A stretch of DNA of 42,342 bases from an uncultured Clostridia bacterium (GTDB lineage: Bacteria; Bacillota; Clostridia; TANB77; CAG-508): contig CALYBF010000002.1 of assembly GCA_944393755.1 (NCBI GenBank), positions 1-42,342 of the forward strand, written 5' to 3'. The position numbers and the translations under genes are program-made. Under the pieces are notes generated by a model, which did not search any database, was not told where the DNA came from, and was given only the letters and a program-made list of their open reading frames with translations. How positions within the stretch are numbered: the first letter of the stretch is position 1; every line of letters starts with the position of its first letter. Of this stretch, positions 3 to 26,683 are shown in pieces.

Positions 3-917
3 AAAAATAGCATAAGAAAAAAATATAGGGAAGGGACAGCCCGAATAAACGCCTGTGGAGATAGTAGGTTACGAGGTCTAAGAAGCAGGAAGCCCATTGG
101 CTTTAGACAATGGGTAGTTCACAACACATTAGAACCATATAGAGAATATGTGAAAAAAAGAAAAAATAAAGAAATTTCCGAAACAGAAGAATTTAAAGAA
201 ATATTAGAAAAAATAGGAGATACAGAAGAAAATAGAAAAATATTAGAATATATTTTAACAGAAAGAAAACTTATGACTATTGCAGGAAAGAATTTAAAAA
301 GACCAACAATATTTTTTAGTAGATTTGTAAGTGAGCTAGAAAAAGGTGGTATGGACGATTATACTTTATTACACGAATATTGCCGCGCAATAGAAATACA
401 TAAAGAAAATGAAAGTACAGAAGAAAGTTTTATAAGTGGTTTTGATTTAATAAATAAAAATGAATTAAATCTATATAGAAAAGATAAAAGAAAATATGAA
501 AGATTAAATGAAACAATAACAGATATATTTAGTGTAAAAGCAACTAAAATATTACATGACAGAGGAATTTATATATCAGAACCACGAGAATTAACAAATG
601 AAGATATTTTAAATTGTAATACAAGTATTATATTAAAAAAAATATTAATGCCATTTGTTGAGAAATATAAAGAAAATATTGTAGGTGCTAGAATAACAGG
701 AAATATGCAAAGTTTGTTTAATAGAATAGGAAGAGATAATTTTGAGAGTTTAAATGATTGTATAAATAAAATAGATTGGTTAATAGCAGAAGGTTTAACA
801 GAAGATTTAAAATCTGGAAAAAACAATAGTGAGATTGTAAAAGAATATAATAAACAAAAAAGTAGAATAGAAGAAATCTATAGAAATATGGAAATAGAAA
901 TAGAAGAAATAAGATAA
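3..917 (+). CDS. Hypothetical Lys/Glu-rich protein, 5'-partial. The frame is open from the window edge, so the track start at GTG-150 is doubtful.
   Basis: The frame has no stop from nt 3 to TAA 915-917. The 49 codons upstream of the track start (..YREGTARINACGDSRLRGLRSRKPIGFRQWVVHN..) are in the same frame and visibly GC-richer. There is no convincing SD before GTG-150. No family was recognised for the 255-aa part. Confidence 0.5.
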   Translation, partial: KNSIRKKYREGTARINACGDSRLRGLRSRKPIGFRQWVVHNTLEPYREYVKKRKNKEISETEEFKEILEKIGDTEENRKILEYILTERKLMTIAGKNLKRPTIFFSRFVSELEKGGMDDYTLLHEYCRAIEIHKENESTEESFISGFDLINKNELNLYRKDKRKYERLNETITDIFSVKATKILHDRGIYISEPRELTNEDILNCNTSIILKKILMPFVEKYKENIVGARITGNMQSLFNRIGRDNFESLNDCINKIDWLIAEGLTEDLKSGKNNSEIVKEYNKQKSRIEEIYRNMEIEIEEIR

Positions 918-932
918 TGTAAATAAAAAAAT

Positions 933-967
933 AACCTCTTTATAACTAATATAAAGAGGTTGTTTTT
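933..967. terminator. Bidirectional rho-independent terminator between convergent genes
   Basis: 12-bp perfect hairpin AACCTCTTTATA (933-944) / TATAAAGAGGTT (950-961). It is followed by TTTTTT on the + strand and preceded by an A-run. Confidence 0.75.
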
Positions 968-995
968 TAAAAGTAATTATTAATTTTAATTTTTA

Positions 996-1940
996 TTATT
1001 CTTCAGGTAATTGTTTGTTATCAGCTTTTTTAGAAGTCTCTTTTTTATTATCTTTAACAGCTTCAGCCATAGCTCCTAAAGAACTTAAGGCATTTGTTGC
1101 TTCAAATGGTATAAATATTTTATTTGCTTCACCATTTGCTACTTTTTCTAAAGCTTCTAATGATTTTAGTTGAACCAATTTATCATCAGGGTTAGCTTTT
1201 TTAATTGATTCATAAACCATTTGAATTTCTTTAGCTTTAGCTTCAGCAACTTCACGAATAGCTTGAGCCTCACCGGCAGCTCTTCTAATTTGAGCTTCTT
1301 TATCAGCTTCAGCTTCTAGGATAGCTGCTTGTTTTTTACCTTCAGCAATAGTGATAGCAGATTGTCTTTGAGCTTCAGATTCTAGAATCATAGCTCTTTT
1401 ATTTCTTTCTGCGTTCATTTCTTTTTCCATTGCATCTTTAACATCTGGTGGTGGTGTAATATCTTTTATTTCAACTCTATCAATTTTACAACCCCATCTG
1501 TCAGTTGCTTCATCAAGAACAACTCTTAATTGAGTATTAATTCCATCTCTTGAACTAAATGTTTCATCTAAAGTCATTTTACCAATAATATCACGAATAG
1601 TTGTAATTGCTAAATATTCAATACCTTTCTTTAAGCTTTGAATTTCATAAACAGCTTTTGCTGGGTCAGTTATTTGGTAAAACACAACCGTATCAATTGT
1701 AATTGTAACGTTATCTTTAGTGATAACATCTTGTGGTGGAATATCCATTGTTTGTTGTTTTAAACTTACAACACTTCTTACATGGTCTAAAAATGGTACA
1801 ATTATTGTAAGACCGGCATCTGCAACCTTATAAAATTTACCTAATCTTTCTATAATGTATACTTCAGATTGTTTAACAATCTTAATTGACATTGCTGCTA
1901 AAATTAAAATAATAATTAATAATATAATTAAAACTACCAT
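996..1940 (-). CDS. SPFH/band-7 (stomatin-like) membrane protein
   Basis: N-terminal TM helix followed by typical SPFH sequence (IIERLGKF.., ITTIRDIIGKMTLDE, DRVEIKDITPP) and an Ala/Glu-rich coiled-coil tail. It lies directly downstream of an NfeD gene, which is the classic pairing. Confidence 0.9.
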   Translation of the reverse strand: MVVLIILLIIILILAAMSIKIVKQSEVYIIERLGKFYKVADAGLTIIVPFLDHVRSVVSLKQQTMDIPPQDVITKDNVTITIDTVVFYQITDPAKAVYEIQSLKKGIEYLAITTIRDIIGKMTLDETFSSRDGINTQLRVVLDEATDRWGCKIDRVEIKDITPPPDVKDAMEKEMNAERNKRAMILESEAQRQSAITIAEGKKQAAILEAEADKEAQIRRAAGEAQAIREVAEAKAKEIQMVYESIKKANPDDKLVQLKSLEALEKVANGEANKIFIPFEATNALSSLGAMAEAVKDNKKETSKKADNKQLPEE

Positions 1941-1991
1941 AATTTTCCTCCTTTAATTTTTATTTAAAATATATGTAGTAATAAAAATAAC

Positions 1992-2417
1992 TTATTTTAT
2001 TGGTGTAACAATAAGTTTAACACCCTTAATTTCCTTTATTTTAACTTCTGTACCTTTGGAAATTTCTATATCGTTTTCACCAGTAGCAGACCAAAGTTCT
2101 CCTTCAACTTTAACTTGCCCTGTAGAATTTATAGAACTTATATCTTTAGTAACAATACCTTTTTTATCTATTAAAGAAAAAGCATTTGTTTTTGTTGTCT
2201 CAACTTTAGCAAATTTCTTTACAAGTGGTTTAGTTGCTAAAATTAAAATTACAGAAGAAATTAAAAACACAGTTGTCTGAATTATAATATTATCTGTAAT
2301 AAAACTTACTGCCATTGCAATTAGTGATGCAATTCCTAACCAAAAAATTAAAAAACCTGCTGTTAAAACCTCACCAATTACAAAAACACCTGCTAAAATT
2401 AACCATATATACCACAT
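1992..2417 (-). CDS. NfeD-family membrane protein, partner of the SPFH protein
   Basis: Three N-terminal TM helices plus a C-terminal OB-like soluble domain (GQVKVEGELWSA..G..V.I..I.G.KL.V). It forms an operon with the downstream SPFH gene. GGAGG RBS at 2419-2430 on the minus strand. Confidence 0.85.
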   Translation of the reverse strand: MWYIWLILAGVFVIGEVLTAGFLIFWLGIASLIAMAVSFITDNIIIQTTVFLISSVILILATKPLVKKFAKVETTKTNAFSLIDKKGIVTKDISSINSTGQVKVEGELWSATGENDIEISKGTEVKIKEIKGVKLIVTPIK

Positions 2418-2497
2418 AAAGAAATCCTCCTTTAATTACCAACTATTACTATTATAACATATTTTAAACAAAAATGGAATATGTAAACCAAAAAAAG

Positions 2498-2534
2498 TGA
2501 GAATTTTGGGGACGGGACTTTTTTGTCTCATTTT
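2498..2534 (+). repeat. Copy of the dispersed hairpin repeat (TGAGA..GGGGACGGGAC..TTTTTGTCTCATTTT)
   Basis: Sequence tgagaattttggggacgggacttttttgtctcatttt. It shares its termini and GGGAC core with the copies at 12165, 12254, 31600, 33487 and 33543. Confidence 0.7.
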
Positions 2535-2587
2535 AATTTGAATATTTTTCGAAAAAAAGCTCATAATTAAAAAGAGGTGTTTTAATT

Positions 2588-2803
2588 ATGAGTGATGAGA
2601 GAAAAGATAAAATACAAGAAAATATAGAAAATCAAAAGATGGCAAGAAGAGATGAGCCAGAGGTAGGGGAAGATAGTACAAAGTATGGAGAATTTGTATC
2701 TTCTTATTTTGCATGGATACCACTACCAGAACAGAAAGAAAAAGCAAAAAGGTTAGAGAATATAACAAAGAAAGAAAATAAAGAAAAAGAGAGTAAAAAC
2801 TAG
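2588..2803 (+). CDS. Hypothetical small Lys/Glu-rich protein (71 aa)
   Basis: ORF with GAGGTG about 9 nt upstream of the ATG. No recognisable family, and it could be non-coding leader sequence of the ctsR operon region. Confidence 0.3.
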   Translation: MSDERKDKIQENIENQKMARRDEPEVGEDSTKYGEFVSSYFAWIPLPEQKEKAKRLENITKKENKEKESKN

Positions 2804-2859
2804 AAAAAATTAGATAAAGAGAGAAAACGGAAGTAAAATAAGAGATTTTTAGATTCAAA

Positions 2860-2876
2860 GGTCAGAAAAGGTCAAA
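2860..2876 (+). promoter_or_regulatory. CtsR operator 1 (GGTCAGA-AAA-GGTCAAA)
   Basis: Direct heptad repeat matching the CtsR consensus (A/G)GTCAAAnAn(A/G)GTCAAA with one mismatch. It lies just upstream of the -35 of the ctsR promoter. Confidence 0.85.
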
Positions 2877-2884
2877 AAATGTAT

Positions 2885-2912
2885 TTGTAAAAAAATAAAA
2901 TAAGAGTATAAT
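2885..2912 (+). promoter_or_regulatory. SigmaA-type promoter of the ctsR-mcsA-mcsB-clpC operon
   Basis: TTGTAA (2885-2890), a 16-nt spacer, then TATAAT (2907-2912). The promoter is bracketed by the two CtsR boxes. Confidence 0.7.
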
Positions 2913-2921
2913 ATTATTGTA

Positions 2922-2938
2922 GGTCAAAGAAAGTCAAA
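2922..2938 (+). promoter_or_regulatory. CtsR operator 2 (GGTCAAA-GAA-AGTCAAA)
   Basis: Perfect match to the CtsR heptad direct-repeat consensus, about 10 nt downstream of the -10 box. Confidence 0.85.
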
Positions 2939-2961
2939 GTTAAAACTAGGGGGTATGTAAT

Positions 2962-3405
2962 ATGCGTATGTCAGATATAATAGAAGAATTTATAAAAGAA
3001 TTATTTGATGAAGGAAATGATGCAATAGAAATACAAAGAAACGAACTTGCAGAACATTTTAATTGTGTACCATCACAAATAAACTATGTAATATCAACAA
3101 GGTTTAAACCACAACAGGGATATTATGTAGAAAGTAGACGAGGTGGCGGTGGTCATATAACAATAAAAAAAGTAAATAATGATAAAGAAGATTATATAAT
3201 GCATATTATAAATAATATAGGAAATGAATTAACATCAAATGATGCAGATATATTAATAAGCGACTTTCTATCTTATAATATAATAGATACAAAAGAAGCA
3301 AAATTATTAAAAGTAGCAACAAACGATAAAGTGCTGAAACTTCCAAAAGAAATAAAAGATGAAGTAAGAGCAAGAATATTTAAAAATATGTTATTAAATA
3401 TATAA
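2962..3405 (+). CDS. ctsR: Class III stress-gene transcriptional repressor CtsR
   Basis: Characteristic CtsR sequence (MSDIIEEFIK..L, VPSQINYVISTRF, GYYVESRRGGGGHI). It is the first gene of a ctsR-mcsA-mcsB-clpC arrangement with its own operators upstream. Confidence 0.95.
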   Translation: MRMSDIIEEFIKELFDEGNDAIEIQRNELAEHFNCVPSQINYVISTRFKPQQGYYVESRRGGGGHITIKKVNNDKEDYIMHIINNIGNELTSNDADILISDFLSYNIIDTKEAKLLKVATNDKVLKLPKEIKDEVRARIFKNMLLNI

Positions 3406-3418
3406 GGAGGAGATAATT

Positions 3419-3988
3419 ATGTTATGTGATAATTGTGGGAAAAAAGAAGCAAATGTAAGATATACAGAAAACATTAATGGAAAGGTAAGAGAATTAAATC
3501 TATGTGAAGAGTGCAGTAAAAAATTAGGAATAGGAGAAATAGACTTTAGTATGCCAATAGACTTTTCAAGTTTCTTGGGAGGCTTTATGGATGATTTAAT
3601 GACACCAGAAATAATGCCAATGATAAGTAGCTTAAAAGAAATAACTTGTGAAAATTGTGGAACAAGTTTTAATGATATTATGAATACAGGAAAAATAGGC
3701 TGTGAAAATTGTTATTCAGTATTTGAAGATAGATTAGACCCAATAATAAAAAGAATACAAGGATCAAATAGACACGTAGGAAGAATAGGAAAAATAATAG
3801 ATAATAAGATAGATAAAAAAGAAGGAAAAGCAGAAGAAAAAATGGAAACAAAATCTAAAGAAAATACTGATAATAGTAATGAAAACAAATTAGAAGAATT
3901 ACAAAGAAAATTAAAACAAGCAATAAAAGAAGAAAGATATGAAGACGCAGCAAAACTAAGAGATGAAATAAAGAAATTAGAAAAATAA
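3419..3988 (+). CDS. mcsA: McsA, protein-arginine-kinase activator (zinc-finger plus UVR motif)
   Basis: N-terminal CxxC..CxxC pairs (CDNCGKK..CEECSKK; CENCGTS..CENCY) and a C-terminal UVR motif (ERYEDAAKLRDEIKKLE). Its position is between ctsR and mcsB. Confidence 0.9.
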   Translation: MLCDNCGKKEANVRYTENINGKVRELNLCEECSKKLGIGEIDFSMPIDFSSFLGGFMDDLMTPEIMPMISSLKEITCENCGTSFNDIMNTGKIGCENCYSVFEDRLDPIIKRIQGSNRHVGRIGKIIDNKIDKKEGKAEEKMETKSKENTDNSNENKLEELQRKLKQAIKEERYEDAAKLRDEIKKLEK

Positions 3989-5013: not shown

Positions 5014-5107
5014 GGACGTTTCCATTTGGTCAAAATGTCCAAAATGAAACGTCCCCAATAGGACATTTTGTCCAATTTGGGACACATCTATATAAAGAAA
5101 CGTCCAC
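5013..5107. repeat. Composite palindromic GGGAC/GTCCC element in the mcsB-clpC intergenic region
   Basis: Inverted repeat GGGACGTTTC (5013-5022) / GAAACGTCCC (5046-5055). Second inverted repeat AAAATGTCC (5032-5040) / GGACATTTT (5061-5069). Direct repeat GAAACGTCC at 5046 and 5097. It shares the GGGAC core with the dispersed repeat family. Confidence 0.6.
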
Positions 5108-5126
5108 AAGAGAGGAGTTGATTTTT

Positions 5127-7583
5127 ATGACATATAGTTTTACAAATAGAGCTAAAAAAGCTATTGAACTTGCAGATAGTTTAGCCATTGAACTTGGACA
5201 TAATTATATTGGAACAGAGCATATTTTATATGGTTTGGTAAAAGAAGGAAGCGGAGTTGCTTCTAAAGTCTTACAAAACCAAGGAATAGAACCTGATATG
5301 GTAATTGATGAAATCGTTAATTTAGTTGGAAATGATTCACCAATTACTGAAACTCTAGGTTTTACACCAAGAACTAAAAGAGTTATTGAAAATGCTTTTA
5401 TAGAAGCTAGAAAATTAGGTTATAATTATATAGGAACAGAACATATTTTAATAGGAATATTAAGAGAAGCAGATAGTATTGCAACAAGAATTTTATTAGA
5501 ATTAAATGTAAATATACCAAAACTTTATGGAGAAATTGTACGAGTTATAAATGAAGGAGAAGATTTCACATCAAACGAAGGTGGAAATAACAATAGAGGT
5601 AAAGGTAGTTATAATCAAACACCTACTCTTAATCAATTTGGTGAAGATTTAACTAAAAAAGCAGAAGAAGGTAAATTAGATCCTATAATTGGTAGAAAAA
5701 CTGAAATTGAAAGAGTTATTCAGATTTTATCTAGAAGAACTAAAAACAACCCTTGTTTGATAGGAGAACCTGGTGTTGGTAAAACTGCTGCTGTTGAAGG
5801 TTTGGCAGAAAAAATTGTTTCTGGTGATGTTCCAGAAACTTTAAAAGGAAAACGTGTTGTAACTATGGATATTTCAGGTATGGTTGCAGGAAGTAAATAC
5901 AGAGGTGATTTTGAAGAAAGAATTAAAAAGGCTCTAGAAGAAGCAAAGAAAGCAGGAGATGTAATCTTATTTATTGACGAAATACATACAATAGTGGGAG
6001 CAGGTGCAGCTGAAGGTGCAATTGATGCAGCAAATATTTTAAAACCATTACTTGCAAGAGGAGAAATTAGATTAATCGGGGCAACTACTTTAAACGAATA
6101 TAGAAAATATATTGAAAAAGATGCAGCATTAGAAAGAAGATTTAGTCCTGTTACAATAAATGAACCATCTGAAAAAGATACAATTAAGATTTTAAAAGGT
6201 TTACGTGATAAATTTGAAGCACATCATGGTGTTGAAATAACAGATGAAGCAATTGAAGCTGCTGTTAAGATGTCTATACGTTATATTAATGATAGGTACT
6301 TACCAGATAAAGCAATTGATTTAATTGATGAAGCAGCATCACGTGCTAAATTAAAAACTTTCACAGAACCAGATAGTCTAAAAAAATTACAAGAAGAGAT
6401 TGAAAAAGTTGAAAATGAAAAAGAAGAAGCTGTAAGAATACAAAAATTTGAAAAAGCAGCAAGTCTAAGAGACAAACAAAAAGAATTAAAAGAGAAGTAT
6501 GAAAAAGAGCAAAAGAAATGGCAAAATAAAAACGATAAAACTATTACAAATATTACAGAAGAAAATGTAGCAGAAGTAATTTCTAGTTGGACAGGAATAC
6601 CAGCAAAGAAAATTACTGAAGATGAAAATGTAAGATTAAAGAATTTAGAAAAAACTCTGCATGAAAGAGTAATAGGACAAGATGAAGCAGTAGAAGCAGT
6701 AGCAAAAGCAATTCGTAGAGGTAGAGTTGGCTTAAAAGACCCTAAAAGACCAATCGGTTCATTTCTATTTTTAGGACCAACAGGTGTTGGTAAAACAGAG
6801 CTTTCAAAAGCATTAGCAGAAAGTTTATTTGGTGATGAAAATGCAATGATAAGAATTGATATGTCTGAATATATGGAACCACACTCTGTTTCTAAATTAA
6901 TAGGTTCACCACCAGGATATGTTGGTTTTGATGAAGGTGGACAATTAACAGAAAAGATAAGAAGAAAACCTTATTCTGTAATTTTATTTGATGAAATAGA
7001 AAAAGCGCATCCAGATGTTATGAATATGCTTCTTCAAATATTAGAAGATGGAAGATTAACAGATTCACAAGGTAGAACTGTAAACTTTAAAAATACTGTT
7101 ATAATTATGACGTCAAATATAGGAGCAAGACTAATAACAGATAAAAAGACATTAGGTTTTTCTAAAACTAACAAAGATAATAAAGAAAAAGAAGAAAGTT
7201 CTAAAAAAGAATATGAAGACATTAAAAAAGAAGTTATGGATGCATTAAAGAAAGAATTAAGACCAGAGTTTATTAACCGTATTGATGAAATAATTGTATT
7301 CCATAAATTAACAGATAGTGAAATATCAAAAATTATTGATATAATGTTAAAAGAAGTAACTACTAGATTAGAAGCACAAAAAATTAAAATAGAATTAGAA
7401 CCAGAAGTTAAAGAATTAATAGCAAGTAAAGGAATTGATAAAAACTTTGGTGCAAGACCTTTAAGAAGAACTATTCAGAGTGTTTTAGAAGATAGGTTAG
7501 CAGAAGAAATATTAGATGGTAATTTAAAGAAAAATAAAACAAACAAAATAGGAGTTAATGACGGGAAAATAGTAGTAAAATAG
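5127..7583 (+). CDS. clpC: ATP-dependent Clp protease ATP-binding subunit ClpC
   Basis: Double Clp-N repeat (YIGTEHILYGL / YIGTEHILIGI), two Walker A boxes (GEPGVGKTA, GPTGVGKTE), a UVR-like linker and a ClpB_D2-small end. ATG-5127 is preferred, with GAGAGGAG 9 nt upstream. Confidence 0.95.
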   Translation: MTYSFTNRAKKAIELADSLAIELGHNYIGTEHILYGLVKEGSGVASKVLQNQGIEPDMVIDEIVNLVGNDSPITETLGFTPRTKRVIENAFIEARKLGYNYIGTEHILIGILREADSIATRILLELNVNIPKLYGEIVRVINEGEDFTSNEGGNNNRGKGSYNQTPTLNQFGEDLTKKAEEGKLDPIIGRKTEIERVIQILSRRTKNNPCLIGEPGVGKTAAVEGLAEKIVSGDVPETLKGKRVVTMDISGMVAGSKYRGDFEERIKKALEEAKKAGDVILFIDEIHTIVGAGAAEGAIDAANILKPLLARGEIRLIGATTLNEYRKYIEKDAALERRFSPVTINEPSEKDTIKILKGLRDKFEAHHGVEITDEAIEAAVKMSIRYINDRYLPDKAIDLIDEAASRAKLKTFTEPDSLKKLQEEIEKVENEKEEAVRIQKFEKAASLRDKQKELKEKYEKEQKKWQNKNDKTITNITEENVAEVISSWTGIPAKKITEDENVRLKNLEKTLHERVIGQDEAVEAVAKAIRRGRVGLKDPKRPIGSFLFLGPTGVGKTELSKALAESLFGDENAMIRIDMSEYMEPHSVSKLIGSPPGYVGFDEGGQLTEKIRRKPYSVILFDEIEKAHPDVMNMLLQILEDGRLTDSQGRTVNFKNTVIIMTSNIGARLITDKKTLGFSKTNKDNKEKEESSKKEYEDIKKEVMDALKKELRPEFINRIDEIIVFHKLTDSEISKIIDIMLKEVTTRLEAQKIKIELEPEVKELIASKGIDKNFGARPLRRTIQSVLEDRLAEEILDGNLKKNKTNKIGVNDGKIVVK

Positions 7584-14841: not shown

Positions 14842-15315
14842 ATGACTGAGACGATTGGAACGACGATTCTGAGGAAGATGGAAGAAGGGCAAGACAAGCT
14901 TTACTTTATAAATGAGATTGGTAGGATAGATGCAGTAATAGATGATGATACAAATATGGCAGAAGGAGTTTTACACATAACTATTTGTGCTGCAACACCT
15001 AAAAAGGAAGTGGAGAGTAAAGAAGAACTGACAAAGAATATAATTCAAGTTCTTATTGGATGCTTTTCTGAAGACGGAGAAGAAACTGAGGGATGGTGGA
15101 AGAACGTATCTAAGATTGATGCTAGTATTCGACTAGGAAGTCCTTTCTCAGAAAACTATTTTACATCCTATGATGTTCCGATTGTTGTAGCAAGAGATGC
15201 TTACGACCCAGAAGCTATTTTTGATTCTTGGTATCTTGAATATAAAGATGCTGAGTTCCAAAACTCAATAACTCCATATGATGACTGGGTGATGTGGGAA
15301 TTAGAGTGCATATAA
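14842..15315 (+). CDS. Hypothetical acidic cytoplasmic protein (157 aa)
   Basis: ATG-14842 is preceded by AAGGAGAA. It has no TM segment or signal peptide and no family was recognised. Codon usage and GC are visibly different from its neighbours, and it has its own promoter and a strong terminator. Confidence 0.6.
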   Translation: MTETIGTTILRKMEEGQDKLYFINEIGRIDAVIDDDTNMAEGVLHITICAATPKKEVESKEELTKNIIQVLIGCFSEDGEETEGWWKNVSKIDASIRLGSPFSENYFTSYDVPIVVARDAYDPEAIFDSWYLEYKDAEFQNSITPYDDWVMWELECI

Positions 15316-22446: not shown

Positions 22447-22710
22447 TTAATAGAAAATTGCATAGACAAAGATAATTAATGTAGCAACTTTTCTCAAAAT
22501 TGTAACTTTATCTTTCAACAGATCTCTTCCAAGGCTGAAGAAAGATGAAGCAAGCAATACTGTTATCGAAATCTTTTTCAAATACGAAGTATAAATATTT
22601 GGTTCGACAAGAGAAAGTACTATAAGCACAACGCCAAACAGAATTGCTACAATACTAACAAGATTGTCAATAACATTATCCCGTTCTTGATTCCTTTTCT
22701 CATCATCCAT
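22447..22710 (-). CDS. Hypothetical small membrane protein (87 aa, about 3 TM helices)
   Basis: ORF with a GGAG RBS (complement of 22716-22722). It is a hydrophobic helical protein and no family was recognised. Confidence 0.5.
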   Translation of the reverse strand: MDDEKRNQERDNVIDNLVSIVAILFGVVLIVLSLVEPNIYTSYLKKISITVLLASSFFSLGRDLLKDKVTILRKVATLIIFVYAIFY

Positions 22711-22871: not shown

Positions 22872-23357
22872 ATGAAAAGATTAAAAACTTTTTTAATATA
22901 TGCACTAATAATTATTGGGTTTTATTTCTTCTCAGAATTTATAATTACAGTAGGTTTAAATTCATCATATGAAGATATTATAAGAAAAGATAATGTATCA
23001 CAAGTAGAAATATATGAAGCACAAGCAACGCTTGTTAATGGAAAAGTAAAAGGTGTAATAAAAGATTCAAGAGGAAATGAGAGTTTAACAGGTAAATATG
23101 TAGAATTAGATTTTTATAGCAAAAGAGATAATGTAGTTGCAAGAAAATACATACCAATAGAAACAACTGATGTAAATACTACACAAGAATTTAGTATATA
23201 TTTTGAAGCAGAAGATGTAACATCATATTCTATAGCTATAGTAGATGAAAAAGAACAAGGAGAATTAAATACTGAATTAGAAGATTGGGAGAGAATAGCA
23301 ATATATATAGGACTATTTCTTGGAATAATTAATATTCCAAATCTATTAGCATTATAA
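22872..23357 (+). CDS. Hypothetical membrane-anchored protein (N- and C-terminal TM helices)
   Basis: ORF with an AAAGGGAAAAGGA purine-rich RBS region. The composition is host-like and AT-rich. No family was recognised. Confidence 0.55.
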   Translation: MKRLKTFLIYALIIIGFYFFSEFIITVGLNSSYEDIIRKDNVSQVEIYEAQATLVNGKVKGVIKDSRGNESLTGKYVELDFYSKRDNVVARKYIPIETTDVNTTQEFSIYFEAEDVTSYSIAIVDEKEQGELNTELEDWERIAIYIGLFLGIINIPNLLAL

Positions 23358-23369
23358 TAAAATTAAAAA

Positions 23370-23399
23370 GGAAGAAGAGCTTATTTGAGCTCTTCTTCC
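23370..23399. terminator. Bidirectional terminator, shared by 22872-23357 (+) and the peptide gene (-)
   Basis: 12-bp perfect hairpin GGAAGAAGAGCT (23370-23381) / AGCTCTTCTTCC (23388-23399). Confidence 0.7.
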
Positions 23400-23405
23400 G
23401 TGATA

Positions 23406-23573
23406 CTAACTAAAAACGGAAACGCACGTTACTCCACAGCCGTTTTTGCATTGTCCGTTGCAATTTGGACACCCAATCTCATAGATTGGAGTCATTGGCT
23501 TCTTTTGGCTAGAGTCAAAAGAATCAAGCTTCTTTTCGAGCATAGAAAGCTCTTGCTTAGACAACGAAAGCAT
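23406..23573 (-). CDS. Cys-rich RiPP precursor peptide candidate (55 aa): MLSLSKQELSMLEKKLDSFDSSQKKPMTPIYEIGCPNCNGQCKNGCGVTCVSVFS
   Basis: Hand-translated minus-strand ORF that is absent from the ORF track. ATG is the complement of 23571-23573 and TAG is the complement of 23406-23408. A GGAGGAG RBS lies 4 nt upstream. It has a helical acidic/basic leader and a C-terminal C-x2-C-x3-C-x3-C-x3-C core. It sits 96 nt downstream of, and co-oriented with, the rSAM/SPASM gene, with a terminator right after it. Confidence 0.75.
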   Translation of the reverse strand: MLSLSKQELSMLEKKLDSFDSSQKKPMTPIYEIGCPNCNGQCKNGCGVTCVSVFS

Positions 23574-23669
23574 TTCTCCTCCTTAATTGGACTGTTGATT
23601 ACATTGCCTAACAACAATTAATGTTATGGATATAGCATTTTAATCACCTCCTAGATGAGGGGACGAATG

Positions 23670-24776
23670 TTATATACAAAGTTCTTGGTTCAAGCTGTAA
23701 ACTGAACTAAGAACTCTGTAATCATCGTATGTCAAAGAAGAAGTTGGCTTTGACATAATACGATGAAATTTAACATAAGCATTAAACATAGCAATTAATT
23801 TATTAAATTGGCAATGTTCCTTATCTCTCTCGTTTATTTTGCCAGTCAATGAATAATTCATACCATAACAAGTAGAACAAACATTGTTTAATATACAGTT
23901 TTTACATTTAGGATCTGCTAGATTAGATTCATCTTCAAATAGAAGAGTATCTAAATCTATTGGTTTACCTTGTGTTAACTGCATAAATGATTGGCAAGGA
24001 AAACAATTTCCTTCAACATCATAGGCTTTCATTTGCTTTCCAGCACCACACCATCTTGTAGGAGTGGTAACTTGAGAAGAGATATATTCCAAACGCAAAT
24101 CTAGAATTTCAGCAATTGGAACAAGAGGGTGATCTAGATAATATTGTGCTAATATGTCCAATTGTTTTTCCAAAATAGGAAGGTCTATATCTAGATCCCA
24201 ATTGATTCCGAAAGCAAAACTACCAGAACAGGCAAACCCAAAACTTTGAATAAAAATAATTCCTTCAGCCAAATTAGGTAAAGATTCTCTAGAAACAGTC
24301 ATTTTTATGTCTTGTTGAGGCCAGCAATGCTTGAAAAAACCTATGTCAATAAGGTCAAAAGAATTGCTTCTATTGATATTGTGCATTTGCCTAGTTCCGT
24401 CTAGACTTATTCCGACACAGAAACTTTCTTTGTTTATTTCGAGCCAATCTTGAATTGAGCCGTGAATAAGTGTGCCGTTTGATGTAGAAAAACATATTCT
24501 GCGATGAGGGCTTTGGATAGAGAGTACATAATCGTGTATTTCTTTCAGCAATTCGAATTCAAGAAATGGTTCTCCACCAAACAAATCTACTTCAATAAAA
24601 TCAAAGCCGTCTTGCAGAGAAAACTCATAATCAAGAATCTTTTTTGCTGTTTCAAAACTCATACTTCTAGGAGATTTACAGTGCTCATAACAGTAAGAAC
24701 AATTCAAATTACATTTTTCTGTTACTGTAAGCATTACTGTTTTTCTTCCTTCAAAGTCGAATACTGTTGCACTCAT
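23670..24776 (-). CDS. Radical SAM enzyme with C-terminal SPASM domain (peptide-modifying maturase, anSME-like)
   Basis: CNLNCSYCY is a CxxxCxxC radical-SAM cluster motif at residues 22-29, and GGEPFL is a SAM-binding motif. SPASM-type auxiliary-cluster cysteines are also present: WCGAGKQMKAYDVEGNCFPC and CKNCILNNVCSTCYG....HC. Confidence 0.88.
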   Translation of the reverse strand: MSATVFDFEGRKTVMLTVTEKCNLNCSYCYEHCKSPRSMSFETAKKILDYEFSLQDGFDFIEVDLFGGEPFLEFELLKEIHDYVLSIQSPHRRICFSTSNGTLIHGSIQDWLEINKESFCVGISLDGTRQMHNINRSNSFDLIDIGFFKHCWPQQDIKMTVSRESLPNLAEGIIFIQSFGFACSGSFAFGINWDLDIDLPILEKQLDILAQYYLDHPLVPIAEILDLRLEYISSQVTTPTRWCGAGKQMKAYDVEGNCFPCQSFMQLTQGKPIDLDTLLFEDESNLADPKCKNCILNNVCSTCYGMNYSLTGKINERDKEHCQFNKLIAMFNAYVKFHRIMSKPTSSLTYDDYRVLSSVYSLNQELCI

Positions 24777-24826
24777 AATGCGAATCCTTTCTAATAGTTA
24801 GAACACAATATGTACAGTACGATTAT

Positions 24827-24855
24827 ATTATAATATATATCTTTTGTTATGTCAA
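24827..24855 (-). promoter_or_regulatory. Consensus sigmaA promoter of the rSAM-peptide operon
   Basis: On the minus strand: TTGACA (complement of 24850-24855), a 17-nt spacer, then TATAAT (complement of 24827-24832). It lies about 50 nt upstream of the rSAM start. Confidence 0.7.
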
Positions 24856-24943
24856 GTACGATATCTAAACAACTATAATTAATGATAAAACTATTTTTAA
24901 CTATCTATATTAATTTGTTAAAGTAAAACAAAAAGTGTTATAA

Positions 24944-24973
24944 AGTAAAAAAAGAGAAGCGGTTTGCTTCTCT
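24944..24973 (-). terminator. Rho-independent terminator of rqcH
   Basis: On the minus strand, directly after the stop: AGAGAAGC / GCTTCTCT hairpin (24953-24973) followed by a T-run (plus-strand A-run 24946-24952). It insulates rqcH from the rSAM cassette. Confidence 0.7.
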
Positions 24974-26683
24974 TTAATGGTTCTTAGGGTTAACATATAA
25001 AGTATTATAATTTGTGTAAATAACCATACCAGGTTTTGCACCTTTTGGTTTTTTAACATATTTAATAGGGCAAGTATCAACAGCAACATTTGAAGAAAAT
25101 CTTGCTTTGCTGTGGTATGCAGTAATTTCAGCACATTTAGTAAGCACATTTTCATCTGGTGTTTTATTATCTAAAATAAGAACTGCGTGGCTTCCGTGCA
25201 TGTCTTTTGTATGAAACCATATATCAGTTTTCTTAGCAAATTTTAAAGTTAAGTAATCATTTTCTTTATTATTTCTTCCAACTAATAAAGTAAAACCATC
25301 TATTATATATTTTAAAGGGTTAAAGTTTGTATTTTTATTTTTAGTAAGGTTAGACTTTTTAATTTTAGATTGTTTCTTAGTGTTTAAGTTTTTAGTTTTT
25401 TCTTTAAAAATATCATTTTCAGAAATCTCATCTAAAATTATACCAATTTCTTCAACAGAAGTAGCATTTTCTAATTCATAAACAACACTTTCAATATAAT
25501 CTAGTTCTTCTAAAGTCTCTTTTTTTTGAACAGAAACTATTTTTAAAGCATTTTTTAGTTTATTATATTTTTTAAAAAATTTTTTAGCATTAACAGAAGG
25601 AAGATATCTTTCATCTAAAGGAATTGTTATTAAATTATTGTTATCATAATAATTTTCTAAGTCAATTGTTTTTAAATTTTTATTAGGTATTTTATAAAGA
25701 TTAGCAGTTATGAGTTCTCCATATAATCTATATTTATCCATATTTTCACAATCTTTTAATTTATTATTAATACTTTCTAGTCTTTTATTATATTTTTTTA
25801 GAGTAGATAATATTAATTTTAAAACATTGTTACGGTTAGTTTTTAATTCTTCAGAAGTTTCTTTTTTATAATAGAAATCATCTAAAGAAAAATTAATAGA
25901 AAAATTATCACAATTATTGTCATCTGAAATAAGAAAATAATCTTTATCAGTTTTTTCTATTTTTAATTTTAAAGAATCAGTCCTATTAATAATGTCATTT
26001 AAAAAATTATAAATTTCATCTAAATTATTAAAATTATATTTTTCTAAAATAAATGAAATATAATTTTTACTAATACCATTATAATTATTACTAATTGCTT
26101 TTGAAATTAAGTTTTTGTCTGTTATTTTTCCTATATTTCCTAAAGAGGTTTTAAAACCATCTAAACTTTCTAATAAAAAATCTTTTTTACTAATTTTAGG
26201 ATATGTATATTTAATATGTGGTATTACAATATGTGTTGAATTTTCATTATTAATATGGCGAAGGCTATCTATTATAATGTTTTGGTCATCTAAAAGAATA
26301 ATATTACAATGTTTTCCCATAAGTTCTATTATTAGTTTTTTAGAAATAATATCATCTATATCATCAAAACCTTCAAACTCAATTGTAATAATTCTTTCTA
26401 AAGAATTTGTAATAATATTTTTAATACGTAAACCTAATAAATGTTTTCTTAAAACCATACAAAAATTAGGTGCTGTTTTAGGGTTTATCCAAGTTTTTGT
26501 TGTTAAATTCACTCTATAATTTTGAGGGTTTGTTGAAATATTTAAAGCATAATTTATTTTATCTAAATAAAAACCTAAAATAACAGTATTGTTATTTGGT
26601 TGGAATATTTTATCAATTCTAGCCTCTGTAAGTAAATTAAGTTCTGAAGCAACAGCTTTTGTTACAATTCCGTCATATGGCAT
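24974..26683 (-). CDS. rqcH: NFACT-family ribosome quality control protein RqcH (formerly fibronectin-binding protein A-like)
   Basis: N-terminal NFACT-N (MPYDGIVTKAVASELN....RIDKIFQP), a coiled-coil middle and C-terminal NFACT-R (DIWFHTKDMHGSHAVL, PGMVIY). Confidence 0.9.
   Translation of the reverse strand: MPYDGIVTKAVASELNLLTEARIDKIFQPNNNTVILGFYLDKINYALNISTNPQNYRVNLTTKTWINPKTAPNFCMVLRKHLLGLRIKNIITNSLERIITIEFEGFDDIDDIISKKLIIELMGKHCNIILLDDQNIIIDSLRHINNENSTHIVIPHIKYTYPKISKKDFLLESLDGFKTSLGNIGKITDKNLISKAISNNYNGISKNYISFILEKYNFNNLDEIYNFLNDIINRTDSLKLKIEKTDKDYFLISDDNNCDNFSINFSLDDFYYKKETSEELKTNRNNVLKLILSTLKKYNKRLESINNKLKDCENMDKYRLYGELITANLYKIPNKNLKTIDLENYYDNNNLITIPLDERYLPSVNAKKFFKKYNKLKNALKIVSVQKKETLEELDYIESVVYELENATSVEEIGIILDEISENDIFKEKTKNLNTKKQSKIKKSNLTKNKNTNFNPLKYIIDGFTLLVGRNNKENDYLTLKFAKKTDIWFHTKDMHGSHAVLILDNKTPDENVLTKCAEITAYHSKARFSSNVAVDTCPIKYVKKPKGAKPGMVIYTNYNTLYVNPKNH

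What the first reader, a model, noticed from the sequence alone, without database searches (positions are those of the whole stretch)
23370..24862. Minimal self-contained rSAM/SPASM plus peptide cassette that looks like an inserted island
The two genes have their own consensus promoter (TTGACA-17-TATAAT, minus strand 24827-24855) and their own terminator (23370-23399). They are insulated from rqcH by the rqcH terminator. By eye their GC content is clearly higher and their codon usage differs from the flanking very AT-rich genes. No leader peptidase, ABC exporter, immunity gene or RRE-type partner is adjacent, and the enzyme comes before the peptide. This enzyme-plus-peptide-only arrangement resembles SCIFF-type systems, whose products are thought to act inside the cell rather than as exported bacteriocins. 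The product could therefore be a modified intracellular peptide of unknown role, for example a cofactor-like, redox or metal-binding peptide.
Basis: partly seen in the sequence, partly recalled or inferred. Interest (0 to 1): 0.75.

Follow-up and report, generated by a model that had tools for sequence, protein, structure and literature searches.

The report
Two-gene radical-SAM peptide maturation cassette
This is a real two-gene unit, a radical-SAM/SPASM enzyme plus a small cysteine-ladder peptide it most likely cross-links, from a widespread family that has no curated model; it is an old, occasionally lost resident of this lineage, not a recent insertion.

Summary
A 368-aa radical-SAM/SPASM gene (23670-24776, -) and a 55-aa peptide gene (23406-23573, -) sit between a 12/12 consensus promoter and a strong terminator. 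No protease, exporter or RRE partner is nearby.

The enzyme is closest to the PapB and CXXX-repeat-target maturase families but scores far below both curated cut-offs. It belongs to an unmodelled sister family: over 800 homologues and 262 GTDB species loci across many phyla. At least 63 of 80 loci carry a same-strand CxxxC-repeat peptide with an "MFxLs..E...L" leader.

The most likely function is leader-guided thioether cross-linking of the core GCPNCNGQCKNGCGVTCVSVFS. The chemistry is inferred, not shown.

The "inserted island" reading is only partly right. GC3 really is high (0.24 and 0.46 against 0.11), and relatives with the same flanks lack the cassette. However, synonymous divergence matches the flanks, the enzyme tree mirrors the AddA tree, the promoter and terminator are conserved, and GC3 is high in every lineage. 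Ancestral presence with repeated loss fits better.

The core is nearly invariant while the leader drifts, and no exporter is nearby. Both hint at a SCIFF-like physiological role rather than a classical bacteriocin. Verdict: new member of a known kind, moderate interest.

The parts
24827..24855 (-). sigma-70-type promoter TTGACA-17-TATAAT of the cassette
   Evidence: It is the only 12/12 match in 22-27 kb. Both hexamers and the spacing are conserved in L014, L099, L100 and L102.
24777..24826 (-). 5' UTR with ribosome-binding site (GAAAGGA) of the rSAM gene
   Evidence: Read from the sequence. The stretch TAACTAnTAGA-ArGGAT is conserved in relatives.
23670..24776 (-). radical-SAM/SPASM peptide maturase, 368 aa, with no N-terminal RRE
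   Evidence: - Pfam: PF04055 scores 37.8 against a cut-off of 29.5.
- NCBIfam: full-length but sub-threshold alignments to PapB (140.6 against 340) and TIGR04115 (126.1 against 350).
- Cysteines: invariant C22/C26/C29 plus seven SPASM cysteines, C243-x12-G-x4-C261, C291-x2-C294-x5-C300-x2-C303 and C322.
- Structure: the AF2 model has pLDDT 90. Its best PDB matches are CteB (E 8.5e-17, TM 0.72) and then anSME.
- Selection: dN/dS is 0.086 against L014.
23574..23669 (-). intergenic spacer between the enzyme and peptide genes, carrying the peptide's AAGGAGG ribosome-binding site and a 4-codon mini-ORF (23624-23638) behind a perfect AGGAGG
   Evidence: Read from the sequence. It is conserved in L014 and only partly in L099/L102. 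No function has been tested.
23475..23573 (-). leader region of the precursor peptide (aa 1-33, MLSLSKQELSMLEKKLDSFDSSQKKPMTPIYEI)
   Evidence: The family-wide leader motif is MFxL[ST]..E...L...L. An HMM built from that alignment finds same-strand peptides in 63 of 80 loci. Within the clade the leader is only 33-39% identical.
23406..23474 (-). core region of the precursor peptide (aa 34-55, GCPNCNGQCKNGCGVTCVSVFS) plus the stop codon
   Evidence: The cysteine columns C35, C38, C42 and C46 are invariant and C50 is over 90% conserved across 30 family peptides. The core is 19-22/22 identical across the clade, with many synonymous changes.
23370..23399 (-). intrinsic terminator of the cassette, which also lies just past the 3' end of the convergent 161-aa gene
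   Evidence: The stem has 12 bp with 6 GC pairs, followed by TTTTTAATTT. The stem co-varies in L099/L102.
24951..24975 (-). rqcH terminator, the upstream boundary of the cassette
   Evidence: Terminator scan.
22872..23357 (+). 161-aa membrane protein that always abuts the cassette in this clade. It is listed as context, not as a shown functional partner.
   Evidence: Homologues adjoin the cassette in L014, L099/L102 and L015/L016. They also persist in the cassette-less relatives L096 and L098. Its GC3 of 0.062 is host-like, and it has no Pfam or NCBIfam hit.

Best explanation
The region is a two-gene RiPP (ribosomally made, post-translationally modified peptide) unit, transcribed from its own strong promoter to its own terminator.

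Proposed mechanism:
- The 368-aa radical-SAM/SPASM enzyme has one SAM-cleaving [4Fe-4S] cluster and a seven-cysteine SPASM region for two auxiliary clusters.
- It binds the helical leader of the 55-aa precursor without a classical RRE domain.
- Through 5'-deoxyadenosyl-radical hydrogen abstraction, it installs intramolecular cross-links in the C-terminal cysteine ladder C35-x2-C38-x3-C42-x3-C46-x3-C50.
- The cross-links are most likely local Cys-S-to-carbon thioethers.

What is shown and what is inferred:
- Shown: the gene pair, its signals, its family relationships and its conservation.
- Inferred from the nearest characterised relatives (PapB, CteB): the cross-link chemistry.

Evolution: the cassette is an old accessory locus of this uncultured gut Clostridia clade, sitting between addA/p161 and rqcH. 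It was inherited vertically and lost several times, rather than inserted recently.

Fate of the product: no exporter or leader protease accompanies the family, and the core is nearly invariant while the leader drifts. The product is therefore more likely a cell-associated, physiological peptide (SCIFF-like in lifestyle) than an arms-race bacteriocin. This last step is the weakest inference.
For: Enzyme identity:
- PF04055 hit, and full-length alignments to PapB and TIGR04115 as best families.
- Invariant CX3CX2C and a 7-Cys SPASM pattern in 34 homologues.
- A confident AF2 model whose best matches are the thioether synthase CteB and then anSME. CteB aligns only from its residue 97, which is after its RRE.

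Peptide is real and is the substrate:
- The core is conserved at the amino-acid level with synonymous changes across six relatives, and dN/dS is 0.16.
- 63 of 80 family loci have a homologous same-strand peptide within 1.5 kb and none have one on the opposite strand. The cysteine columns are invariant.
- Related peptides touch the TIGR04114, TIGR04117 and TIGR04118 CXXX models.

Transcription unit: promoter and terminator were found and are conserved or co-varying.

Minimal system: no recurrent exporter or protease appears among the neighbours of 80 loci. The commonest neighbours are a GNAT in 11 loci and a Ser/Thr kinase in 8.

Vertical history:
- dS of the cassette equals that of the flanks.
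- The rSAM and AddA trees are congruent, with cassette-less L096 nested among carriers.
- The same locus is occupied in L014, L099/L102 and L015/L016, and it is empty in L098.
Against: - No biochemical data exist for this family, and I found no paper on it.
- The enzyme scores far below every curated NCBIfam cut-off, so transferring a reaction from PapB is weak.
- The core has no Asp or Glu, which are the PapB acceptors, and no acceptor residue type is conserved family-wide.
- The Pfam SPASM model itself gave no hit at E <= 1.
- How a leader is recognised without an RRE is unknown.
- An exporter or protease could be encoded elsewhere in the genome, since only 42 kb is visible.
- The raised GC3 remains unexplained under vertical inheritance.
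Confidence: 0.7

Rival explanations
1. Recently inserted genomic island: the cassette was acquired horizontally by this genome from a higher-GC donor and dropped between p161 and rqcH.
For: - GC3 is 2- to 4-fold above background with atypical codon usage.
- The relative L098 has the same flanks, addA-p161-like...rqcH-GH3, without the cassette. L096 and L094 also lack it.
- The family is scattered over many phyla. It also occurs on a Phocaeicola plasmid and on a phage-labelled contig beside an integrase fragment.
Against: - dS between the window and L014 is 0.25 for both cassette genes against 0.17-0.35 for the flanks. Against L099 it is 1.15 compared with 0.92 for rqcH.
- The rSAM tree mirrors the AddA tree, and the outgroup L015/L016 already carries the cassette beside addA.
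- There are no direct or inverted repeats, att-like sites, integrase or transposase at the borders.
- GC3 is equally raised in all carrier lineages. Residual donor composition should have decayed at these divergences; this last point is my inference from amelioration kinetics.
Confidence: 0.15
2. Classical exported antimicrobial or signalling RiPP (sactipeptide- or ranthipeptide-type bacteriocin) whose leader protease, exporter and immunity genes lie elsewhere in the genome.
For: - Cys-cross-linked rSAM RiPPs are often antimicrobial (established knowledge).
- A true TIGR04115 locus on the Anaerococcus plasmid has an ABC transporter and lanKC nearby.
- ABC-type ATPases occur near 7 of 80 family loci.
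- The adjacent 161-aa membrane protein could in principle act in immunity or export.
Against: - No exporter or protease recurs next to the family.
- The leader has no double-glycine-type cleavage motif (by inspection).
- The core is invariant across lineages at 53% AddA identity while the leader drifts, the opposite of diversifying bacteriocin cores.
- The p161-like gene persists where the cassette is lost.
Confidence: 0.25
3. The enzyme performs a different radical-SAM chemistry on the peptide (for example epimerisation, C-C or C-O cross-links, or Cys oxidation to formylglycine as in anSME) rather than forming thioethers.
For: - SPASM enzymes catalyse many reactions. The structural matches include anSME, TigE, ChlB, SuiB and EpeE.
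- The enzyme is below the cut-off of every thioether-synthase model.
- No acceptor residue is conserved.
Against: - The best sequence families (PapB, then TIGR04115) and the best structure (CteB) are Cys-peptide thioether or Cys-repeat maturases.
- Only the cysteines are invariant in the substrate.
- There are seven rather than eight conserved SPASM cysteines. By established knowledge of CteB this leaves an open auxiliary-cluster site for a substrate thiolate; I infer the same here.
- anSME is excluded as a family: 47.7 against 349 bits, with no sulfatase or C/S-x-P-x-R target in the window.
Confidence: 0.2
4. The small ORF is not a real gene, and the rSAM is an orphan enzyme acting on another substrate.
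For: The ORF is short (55 aa) and has no Pfam or NCBIfam hit of its own.
Against: - It has a strong ribosome-binding site.
- Its amino-acid sequence is conserved with synonymous substitutions in six relatives, and dN/dS is 0.16.
- Homologous same-strand peptides were found in 63 of 80 loci and none on the opposite strand.
Confidence: 0.02

Closest known systems
PapB/PapA (freyrasin) ranthipeptide system, NCBIfam NF047865
   Same: - It is the best-scoring curated family, aligning end to end (residues 13-316 to model positions 4-329 of 330).
- It is an rSAM enzyme with two auxiliary clusters that makes local Cys thioether rings in a repeat-containing, leader-guided core (PMC9413430, PMC12373016).
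   Different: - The score is 140.6 bits against a cut-off of 340, and all 34 family members tested are sub-threshold.
- PapB links Cys to Asp or Glu in CX3D motifs, whereas this core has no Asp or Glu.
- The PapB papers assume RRE-mediated leader binding; no RRE is detectable here.
CXXX-repeat peptide / rSAM maturase system (TIGR04115 enzyme; TIGR04114, TIGR04117 and TIGR04118 peptides). To my knowledge it is defined only bioinformatically.
   Same: - It is the second-best family, with a full-length alignment (12-334 to 2-358 of 359).
- The substrate type is the same, Cys-x3 repeats after a leader.
- Two peptides of this family reach the TIGR04114 cut-off, and others hit TIGR04117 and TIGR04118 weakly.
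   Different: - The score is 126.1 bits against a cut-off of 350.
- Identity to an annotated TIGR04115 protein, which there is the N-terminal part of a 728-aa protein next to an ABC transporter, is only 29%.
- The window peptide itself hits none of the CXXX peptide models.
SCIFF system (ScfA/ScfB; CteB with thermocellin, PDB 5WGG)
   Same: - It is a two-gene enzyme-plus-Cys-rich-peptide unit in Clostridia with a conserved core and no dedicated exporter (established knowledge).
- CteB is the best solved-structure match.
   Different: - TIGR03974 scores 82 bits against a cut-off of 425, and the peptide does not hit TIGR03973.
- CteB has an N-terminal RRE of about 95 residues that is absent here.
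- SCIFF is near-universal in Clostridia, whereas this cassette is patchy.
Anaerobic sulfatase-maturating enzyme (anSME, TIGR03942, PDB 4K36-39)
   Same: It has a similar size (about 370 aa), an rSAM plus SPASM architecture without an RRE, and acts on a Cys in a peptide. It is the second-best structural match.
   Different: - The score is 47.7 bits against a cut-off of 349.
- There are seven rather than eight conserved SPASM cysteines.
- No sulfatase gene is in the window.
- A dedicated conserved small peptide sits adjacent.

Membership tests
Radical SAM superfamily (PF04055) | CX3CX2C cluster motif and a Pfam score above the gathering threshold | tested here: met
   PF04055 scores 37.8 bits against a cut-off of 29.5. 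C22, C26 and C29 are invariant in 34 homologues.
SPASM-domain rSAM enzymes | C-terminal CX9-15GX4C ... CX2CX5CX3C ... C cysteine pattern for two auxiliary [4Fe-4S] clusters | tested here: met
   - The pattern C243-x12-G256-x4-C261, C291-x2-C294-x5-C300-x2-C303 and C322 is invariant or over 90% conserved.
- The C-terminal region aligns to the SPASM part of CteB.
- Caveats: the Pfam SPASM model gave no hit at E <= 1, and the last spacing is x2 rather than x3.
PapB family ranthipeptide maturase (NF047865) | HMM score of at least 340 bits | tested here: not met
   The window protein scores 140.6 bits. The best of 34 family members reaches only E 1.7e-49.
PapB family ranthipeptide maturase (NF047865) | Substrate with Cys-X3-Asp/Glu motifs | tested here: not met
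   The core GCPNCNGQCKNGCGVTCVSVFS contains no Asp or Glu.
CXXX-repeat-target rSAM maturase (TIGR04115) | HMM score of at least 350 bits | tested here: not met
   The score is 126.1 bits. All 34 relatives are sub-threshold. Identity to an annotated member is 29%.
CXXX-repeat-target rSAM maturase (TIGR04115) | Adjacent peptide with Cys-x3 repeats (TIGR04114, TIGR04117 or TIGR04118) | tested here: inconclusive
   The window core has three consecutive Cys-x3 units (C38-x3-C42-x3-C46-x3-C50) but hits no peptide model at E <= 1. Peptides of other family members reach the TIGR04114 cut-off of 20 bits (20.8 and 20.7) or hit TIGR04117 and TIGR04118 weakly.
SCIFF system (TIGR03974 / TIGR03973) | Enzyme score of at least 425 bits and a six-Cys-in-45 peptide of at least 50 bits | tested here: not met
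   The enzyme scores 82.1 bits and the window peptide gives no hit.
anSME (TIGR03942) | HMM score of at least 349 bits and a linked sulfatase substrate | tested here: not met
   The score is 47.7 bits. No sulfatase is among the window's genes.
RRE-dependent RiPP maturases | Fused or adjacent PqqD-like winged-helix RRE domain | tested here: not met
   - The rSAM motif starts at residue 22, and CteB aligns only from its residue 97.
- There is no PqqD or other Pfam hit in the enzyme or its neighbours at E <= 1.
- The AF2 model shows only the barrel, the SPASM region and two C-terminal helices.
- RRE-Finder itself was not available.
Sactipeptide / ranthipeptide RiPP classes | Cys sulfur to alpha-carbon (sacti) or to beta/gamma-carbon (ranthi) thioether in the mature product | not testable with these tools
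   This needs mass spectrometry and NMR of the modified peptide.
Genomic island (recent horizontal insertion) | Atypical composition | tested here: met
   GC3 is 0.236 and 0.464 against 0.111, with p about 1e-11.
Genomic island (recent horizontal insertion) | Mobility genes, flanking repeats, or lower divergence than the flanks / phylogenetic incongruence | tested here: not met
   There are no bounding repeats and no integrase or transposase adjacent. dS is equal to that of the flanks. The rSAM and AddA trees are congruent.

The most novel reading that the evidence does not exclude
This RRE-less, exporter-less rSAM family, paired with CxxxC-ladder peptides, may install a cross-link not yet described. 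One possibility is a ladder of backbone or non-acidic side-chain thioethers. The product might act inside the cell, for example as a metal- or redox-active peptide. The family lacks both hallmarks used as filters in the two large rSAM-RiPP surveys described in PMC10288494 (RRE association and a neighbouring ABC transporter), so it may have been systematically missed. The unusually sustained high GC3 of the peptide gene would then reflect selection linked to its expression.
Probability: 0.2. Interest if true: 0.7.

Novelty: new member of a known kind. Interest (0 to 1): 0.42.

Why it matters
- It adds a large, uncurated sister family to the known rSAM/SPASM maturases of Cys-rich peptides. There are over 800 homologues and 262 GTDB species loci across Bacillota, Bacteroidota, Spirochaetota, Actinomycetota, Chloroflexota, Planctomycetota and others, mostly gut anaerobes.
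- The family has neither an RRE nor a linked transporter. Those are the two filters used by the large rSAM-RiPP surveys described in PMC10288494, so it may be a blind spot of current genome mining.
- Its minimal two-gene form makes it easy to test by co-expression.
- The case also shows that atypical GC3 plus presence/absence among relatives does not by itself prove recent insertion. Here divergence and phylogeny point to old residence with repeated loss.

Tried and rejected
- **Flanking repeats or att sites:** only short, low-identity chance matches turned up, and none bound the cassette.
- **Possible operator:** a 15-nt direct repeat straddles the promoter (24809-24823 and 24848-24862). It is not conserved in L099/L102, so I dropped it.
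- **Riboswitch or leader RNA (Rfam at E <= 1):** only sub-threshold chance hits appeared.
- **p161 as a dedicated partner:** it is adjacent in all carrier lineages, but it persists in cassette-less relatives and is not found next to family members outside the clade. I therefore treat it as backbone context.
- **p87 as part of the cassette:** it is absent in L014, which keeps the cassette.
- **Structured mRNA as the cause of high GC3:** the 308-nt peptide mRNA folds with z = -3.7, but much of that comes from the terminator. The result is inconclusive.
- **Literature:** searches for the CXXX-repeat system, TIGR04115, and Cys-rich ranthipeptides in gut bacteria found no characterisation. The founding Haft & Basu 2011 paper is not held.
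- **ChlB as an RRE-less model (PDB 9GM3):** no open paper describing it was retrieved.
- **PapB's own domain layout:** I could not verify it. The papers speak of an RRE, but the NCBIfam model is only 330 positions long.
Full report
**1. What is there**

On the minus strand, 23670-24776 encodes a 368-aa protein and 23406-23573 encodes a 55-aa peptide, MLSLSKQELSMLEKKLDSFDSSQKKPMTPIYEI-GCPNCNGQCKNGCGVTCVSVFS.
- A TTGACA-17-TATAAT promoter at 24855-24827 is the only 12/12 match in 22-27 kb.
- A hairpin with a 12-bp stem and a T-run at 23399-23370 follows the peptide gene.
- The rqcH terminator at 24975-24951 lies just upstream of the promoter.
- Five terminator-like sites were found in this region against 0.8 expected from shuffles.
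- The promoter hexamers, their spacing and the ribosome-binding region are conserved in four relatives.
- The terminator stem keeps pairing through compensatory changes in L099/L102.

**2. Composition**

The window has 26.4% GC. Pooled GC3 of the background genes is 0.111.
- The peptide gene has GC3 0.464 (rank 1 of 34 genes).
- The rSAM gene has GC3 0.236 (rank 4).
- The binomial p is about 1e-11 for each.
- Given their amino acids and host codon usage, the expected values are 0.14 and 0.13.

The neighbouring 161-aa gene is host-like (0.062).

**3. The enzyme**

- Pfam gives Radical_SAM and Fer4_12 only.
- NCBIfam gives full-length but clearly sub-threshold matches. The best are PapB ranthipeptide maturase (140.6 against 340 bits) and the CXXX-repeat-target maturase TIGR04115 (126.1 against 350). 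SCIFF maturase (82 against 425) and anSME (47.7 against 349) are far lower.
- All 34 aligned homologues behave the same way, so this is a separate family without a curated model.
- Invariant residues are the CX3CX2C motif (C22/C26/C29) and seven SPASM cysteines.
- The AF2 model is confident (pLDDT 90, pTM 0.88).
- The best solved-structure matches are the thioether synthase CteB (E 8.5e-17, TM 0.72) and then anSME.
- CteB aligns only from its residue 97, after its RRE. The protein here starts 21 residues before the cluster motif, has no PqqD hit, and ends in two helices. No RRE is detectable.

**4. The family and its peptide**

- A protein search found 800 homologues at E <= 0.001. The top 120 are all 256-382 aa and score above 320 bits, and almost none are named.
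- In one genome per GTDB species, 262 loci encode a relative. They span Clostridia, Bacilli, Erysipelotrichaceae, Coriobacteriia, Bacteroidales, Spirochaetes, Anaerolineae, Planctomycetes, Cloacimonetes and Thermodesulfovibrionales.
- Small Cys-rich ORFs flank the enzyme. An alignment of 30 shows the leader MFxL[ST]..E...L...L followed by C-x2,3-C-x3-C-x3-C-x3-C(-x3-C)n. Four cysteine columns are invariant and no other core residue is conserved.
- An HMM of this alignment finds a same-strand peptide within 1.5 kb in 63 of 80 loci: 47 upstream, 16 downstream and none on the opposite strand. Several of the remaining loci have divergent Cys peptides.
- Some of these peptides reach or approach the TIGR04114, TIGR04117 and TIGR04118 'CXXX' models.

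The system is therefore a sister of the bioinformatically defined CXXX-repeat systems and of PapB. The enzyme-first order seen here is the minority arrangement.

**5. Partners**

I clustered all ORFs within 4 kb of the enzyme in 80 loci and scanned cluster representatives against Pfam.
- No recurrent exporter or protease appeared.
- The commonest neighbours are a GNAT acetyltransferase (11 loci) and a Ser/Thr protein kinase (8 loci).
- XRE regulators and recombinases or integrases also recur.
- Two no-Pfam proteins sharing a KYYFxFR motif account for about 10 loci.

The 'minimal cassette' is therefore a property of the family, not only of this window. No sulfatase is in the window.

**6. Is it an inserted island?**

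Evidence on synteny:
- The species-level relative L014 (rSAM 95%, AddA 92-93%) has the same arrangement.
- L099 and L102 (rSAM 81-82%, AddA 76-78%, RqcH 77%) carry the block rSAM-peptide-p161 inverted between addA and rqcH.
- L015 and L016 (rSAM 70%, AddA 52-53%) have addA-93aa-rSAM-peptide-p165.
- L098 (AddA 71%, RqcH 75%) has addA-p155-[540 bp]-rqcH-GH3 with no trace of the cassette.
- L096 (AddA 77%) and L094 (78%) also lack it.

Presence/absence among relatives is therefore real. Four results argue against a recent gain:
- dS between the window and L014 is 0.25 for both cassette genes against 0.17-0.35 for five flanking genes. Against L099 it is 1.15 compared with 0.92 for rqcH.
- The rSAM tree ((L015, L016), ((window, L014), L099)) matches the AddA tree, and cassette-less L096 nests between the carriers L099 and L102.
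- No repeats or mobility genes bound the cassette.
- GC3 is raised to the same degree in every AT-rich carrier. The rSAM gene is at 0.19-0.25 and the peptide gene reaches 0.66 in L099, while the flanks are at 0.10-0.15.

At these divergences a donor signature should have decayed; that is my inference from amelioration kinetics. The high GC3 is therefore being maintained for an unknown reason. The glycolytic fba and clpC genes in the window have GC3 of about 0.1, so a simple expression bias is unlikely.

The most parsimonious history is ancestral presence at the addA/p161 locus with at least three losses. At larger scale the family is clearly mobile. It has a patchy phylum distribution, a copy on a Phocaeicola plasmid, and a phage-labelled contig with two paralogues, a peptide and an integrase fragment.

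**7. Selection**

- The rSAM gene is the most constrained of the compared genes (dN/dS 0.086), and the peptide gene has dN/dS 0.16.
- Within the clade the 22-residue core is 19-22/22 identical, with the first 18 residues almost invariant. Outside the close relative L014 (29/33), the leader is only 33-39% identical.
- That is the reverse of the conserved-leader, variable-core pattern typical of antimicrobial RiPPs (established knowledge).
- Together with the lack of an exporter, it favours a conserved physiological product, as proposed for SCIFF. This is an inference, not a result.

**8. Mechanism**

Shown: the gene pair, its signals, the cofactor-binding motifs, and the family-wide enzyme-peptide linkage.

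Inferred:
- Leader-guided binding without an RRE.
- Reductive SAM cleavage and hydrogen abstraction from a core residue.
- Capture by a cysteine thiolate, probably held at the auxiliary cluster that has an open site (seven rather than eight SPASM cysteines, as in CteB).
- The result would be local thioether rings along the Cys ladder.

The core does contain Asn-x-x-Cys and Thr-Cys contexts, which resemble acceptors known from NxxcB and CteB (my own knowledge, not tested here). Other SPASM chemistries cannot be excluded.

**9. Verdict**

This is a real, cleanly delimited RiPP cassette. It is a new member of a known kind, from an uncurated sister family of the PapB and CXXX-repeat maturases. It is not a SCIFF or anSME member, and it is not a recent island.

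Interest is moderate, for four reasons: the family is large, it is minimal, it is experimentally easy to test, and it may be invisible to RRE- or transporter-guided mining (filters described in PMC10288494). Nothing here contradicts current understanding of rSAM RiPPs.

Noticed in passing
window 22447-22710 (-): An 87-aa predicted membrane ORF between addA and p161 has raised GC3 (0.26) and atypical codon usage (z = -3.7). It is absent from the 92-95% relative L014, where the addA stop codon and the p161-like start are about 118 bp apart. It has no Pfam or NCBIfam hit. It looks like a strain-specific small gene, or a spurious ORF.
   Followed up: partly
window 14842-15315 (+): A 157-aa ORF between mutS2 and the PP2C phosphatase is the most GC-rich long gene in the window (GC 0.37, GC3 0.30, p about 2e-10). 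It has no Pfam hit. It is also called as a gene on contig L001.
   Followed up: partly
window 23624-23652 (-): A 4-codon mini-ORF (MLYP-stop, 23624-23638) sits behind a perfect AGGAGG in the spacer between the rSAM and peptide genes. It is conserved in L014 and only partly in L099/L102.
   Followed up: no
cassette genes in window, L014, L099, L015/L016, L017: GC3 of the rSAM and peptide genes stays 2- to 6-fold above the flanks in every AT-rich lineage, even though synonymous sites are saturated between lineages. The cause is unexplained. Candidates are selection on codons or mRNA, or recurrent replacement.
   Followed up: partly
L098 about 5050-5200 (the empty site between the p161-like gene and rqcH): By eye, the 540-bp gap translates to ...NADVNGSLNILRKYIKE..., which resembles the C-terminal end of an IS605-type TnpB. 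Intact OrfB_IS605 genes lie near addA in L094/L095, where integrase and IS91 genes also follow addA. The addA-rqcH interval seems to be visited by mobile elements.
   Followed up: no
family loci L014-L093, within 4 kb of the rSAM: Recurrent but non-universal neighbours could be tailoring or accessory genes of subfamilies. They are a GNAT acetyltransferase (11 of 80 loci, often 4-50 bp downstream), a Ser/Thr protein kinase (8 of 80), and two no-Pfam proteins sharing a KYYFxFR motif (about 10 of 80).
   Followed up: partly
L028, L034, L086; L056, L071, L085: Some family members pair with different short cores that end in Trp-containing tails (...NFNGCAKGYCQAWD; ...CSCKGCEGCTSW; ...SCSCTAHKKSCGWD). 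These have only 2-4 cysteines, which suggests sub-classes with other ring patterns.
   Followed up: no
L104 (MT836223.1, 'Bacteriophage sp.', human faeces) 22-3780: An unverified phage-labelled contig carries an integrase fragment, two paralogous rSAM genes of this family (393 and 366 aa) and one CxxxC peptide between them.
   Followed up: partly
L103 (Anaerococcus prevotii plasmid pAPRE01) 44-7214: The annotated TIGR04115 'CXXX-repeat target' maturase there is a 728-aa protein with the rSAM as its N-terminal part. It is preceded by a 56-aa Cys-containing ORF and followed by an ABC transporter and a class III lanthionine synthetase (lanKC). This is a richer context than the minimal cassette studied here.
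   Followed up: no
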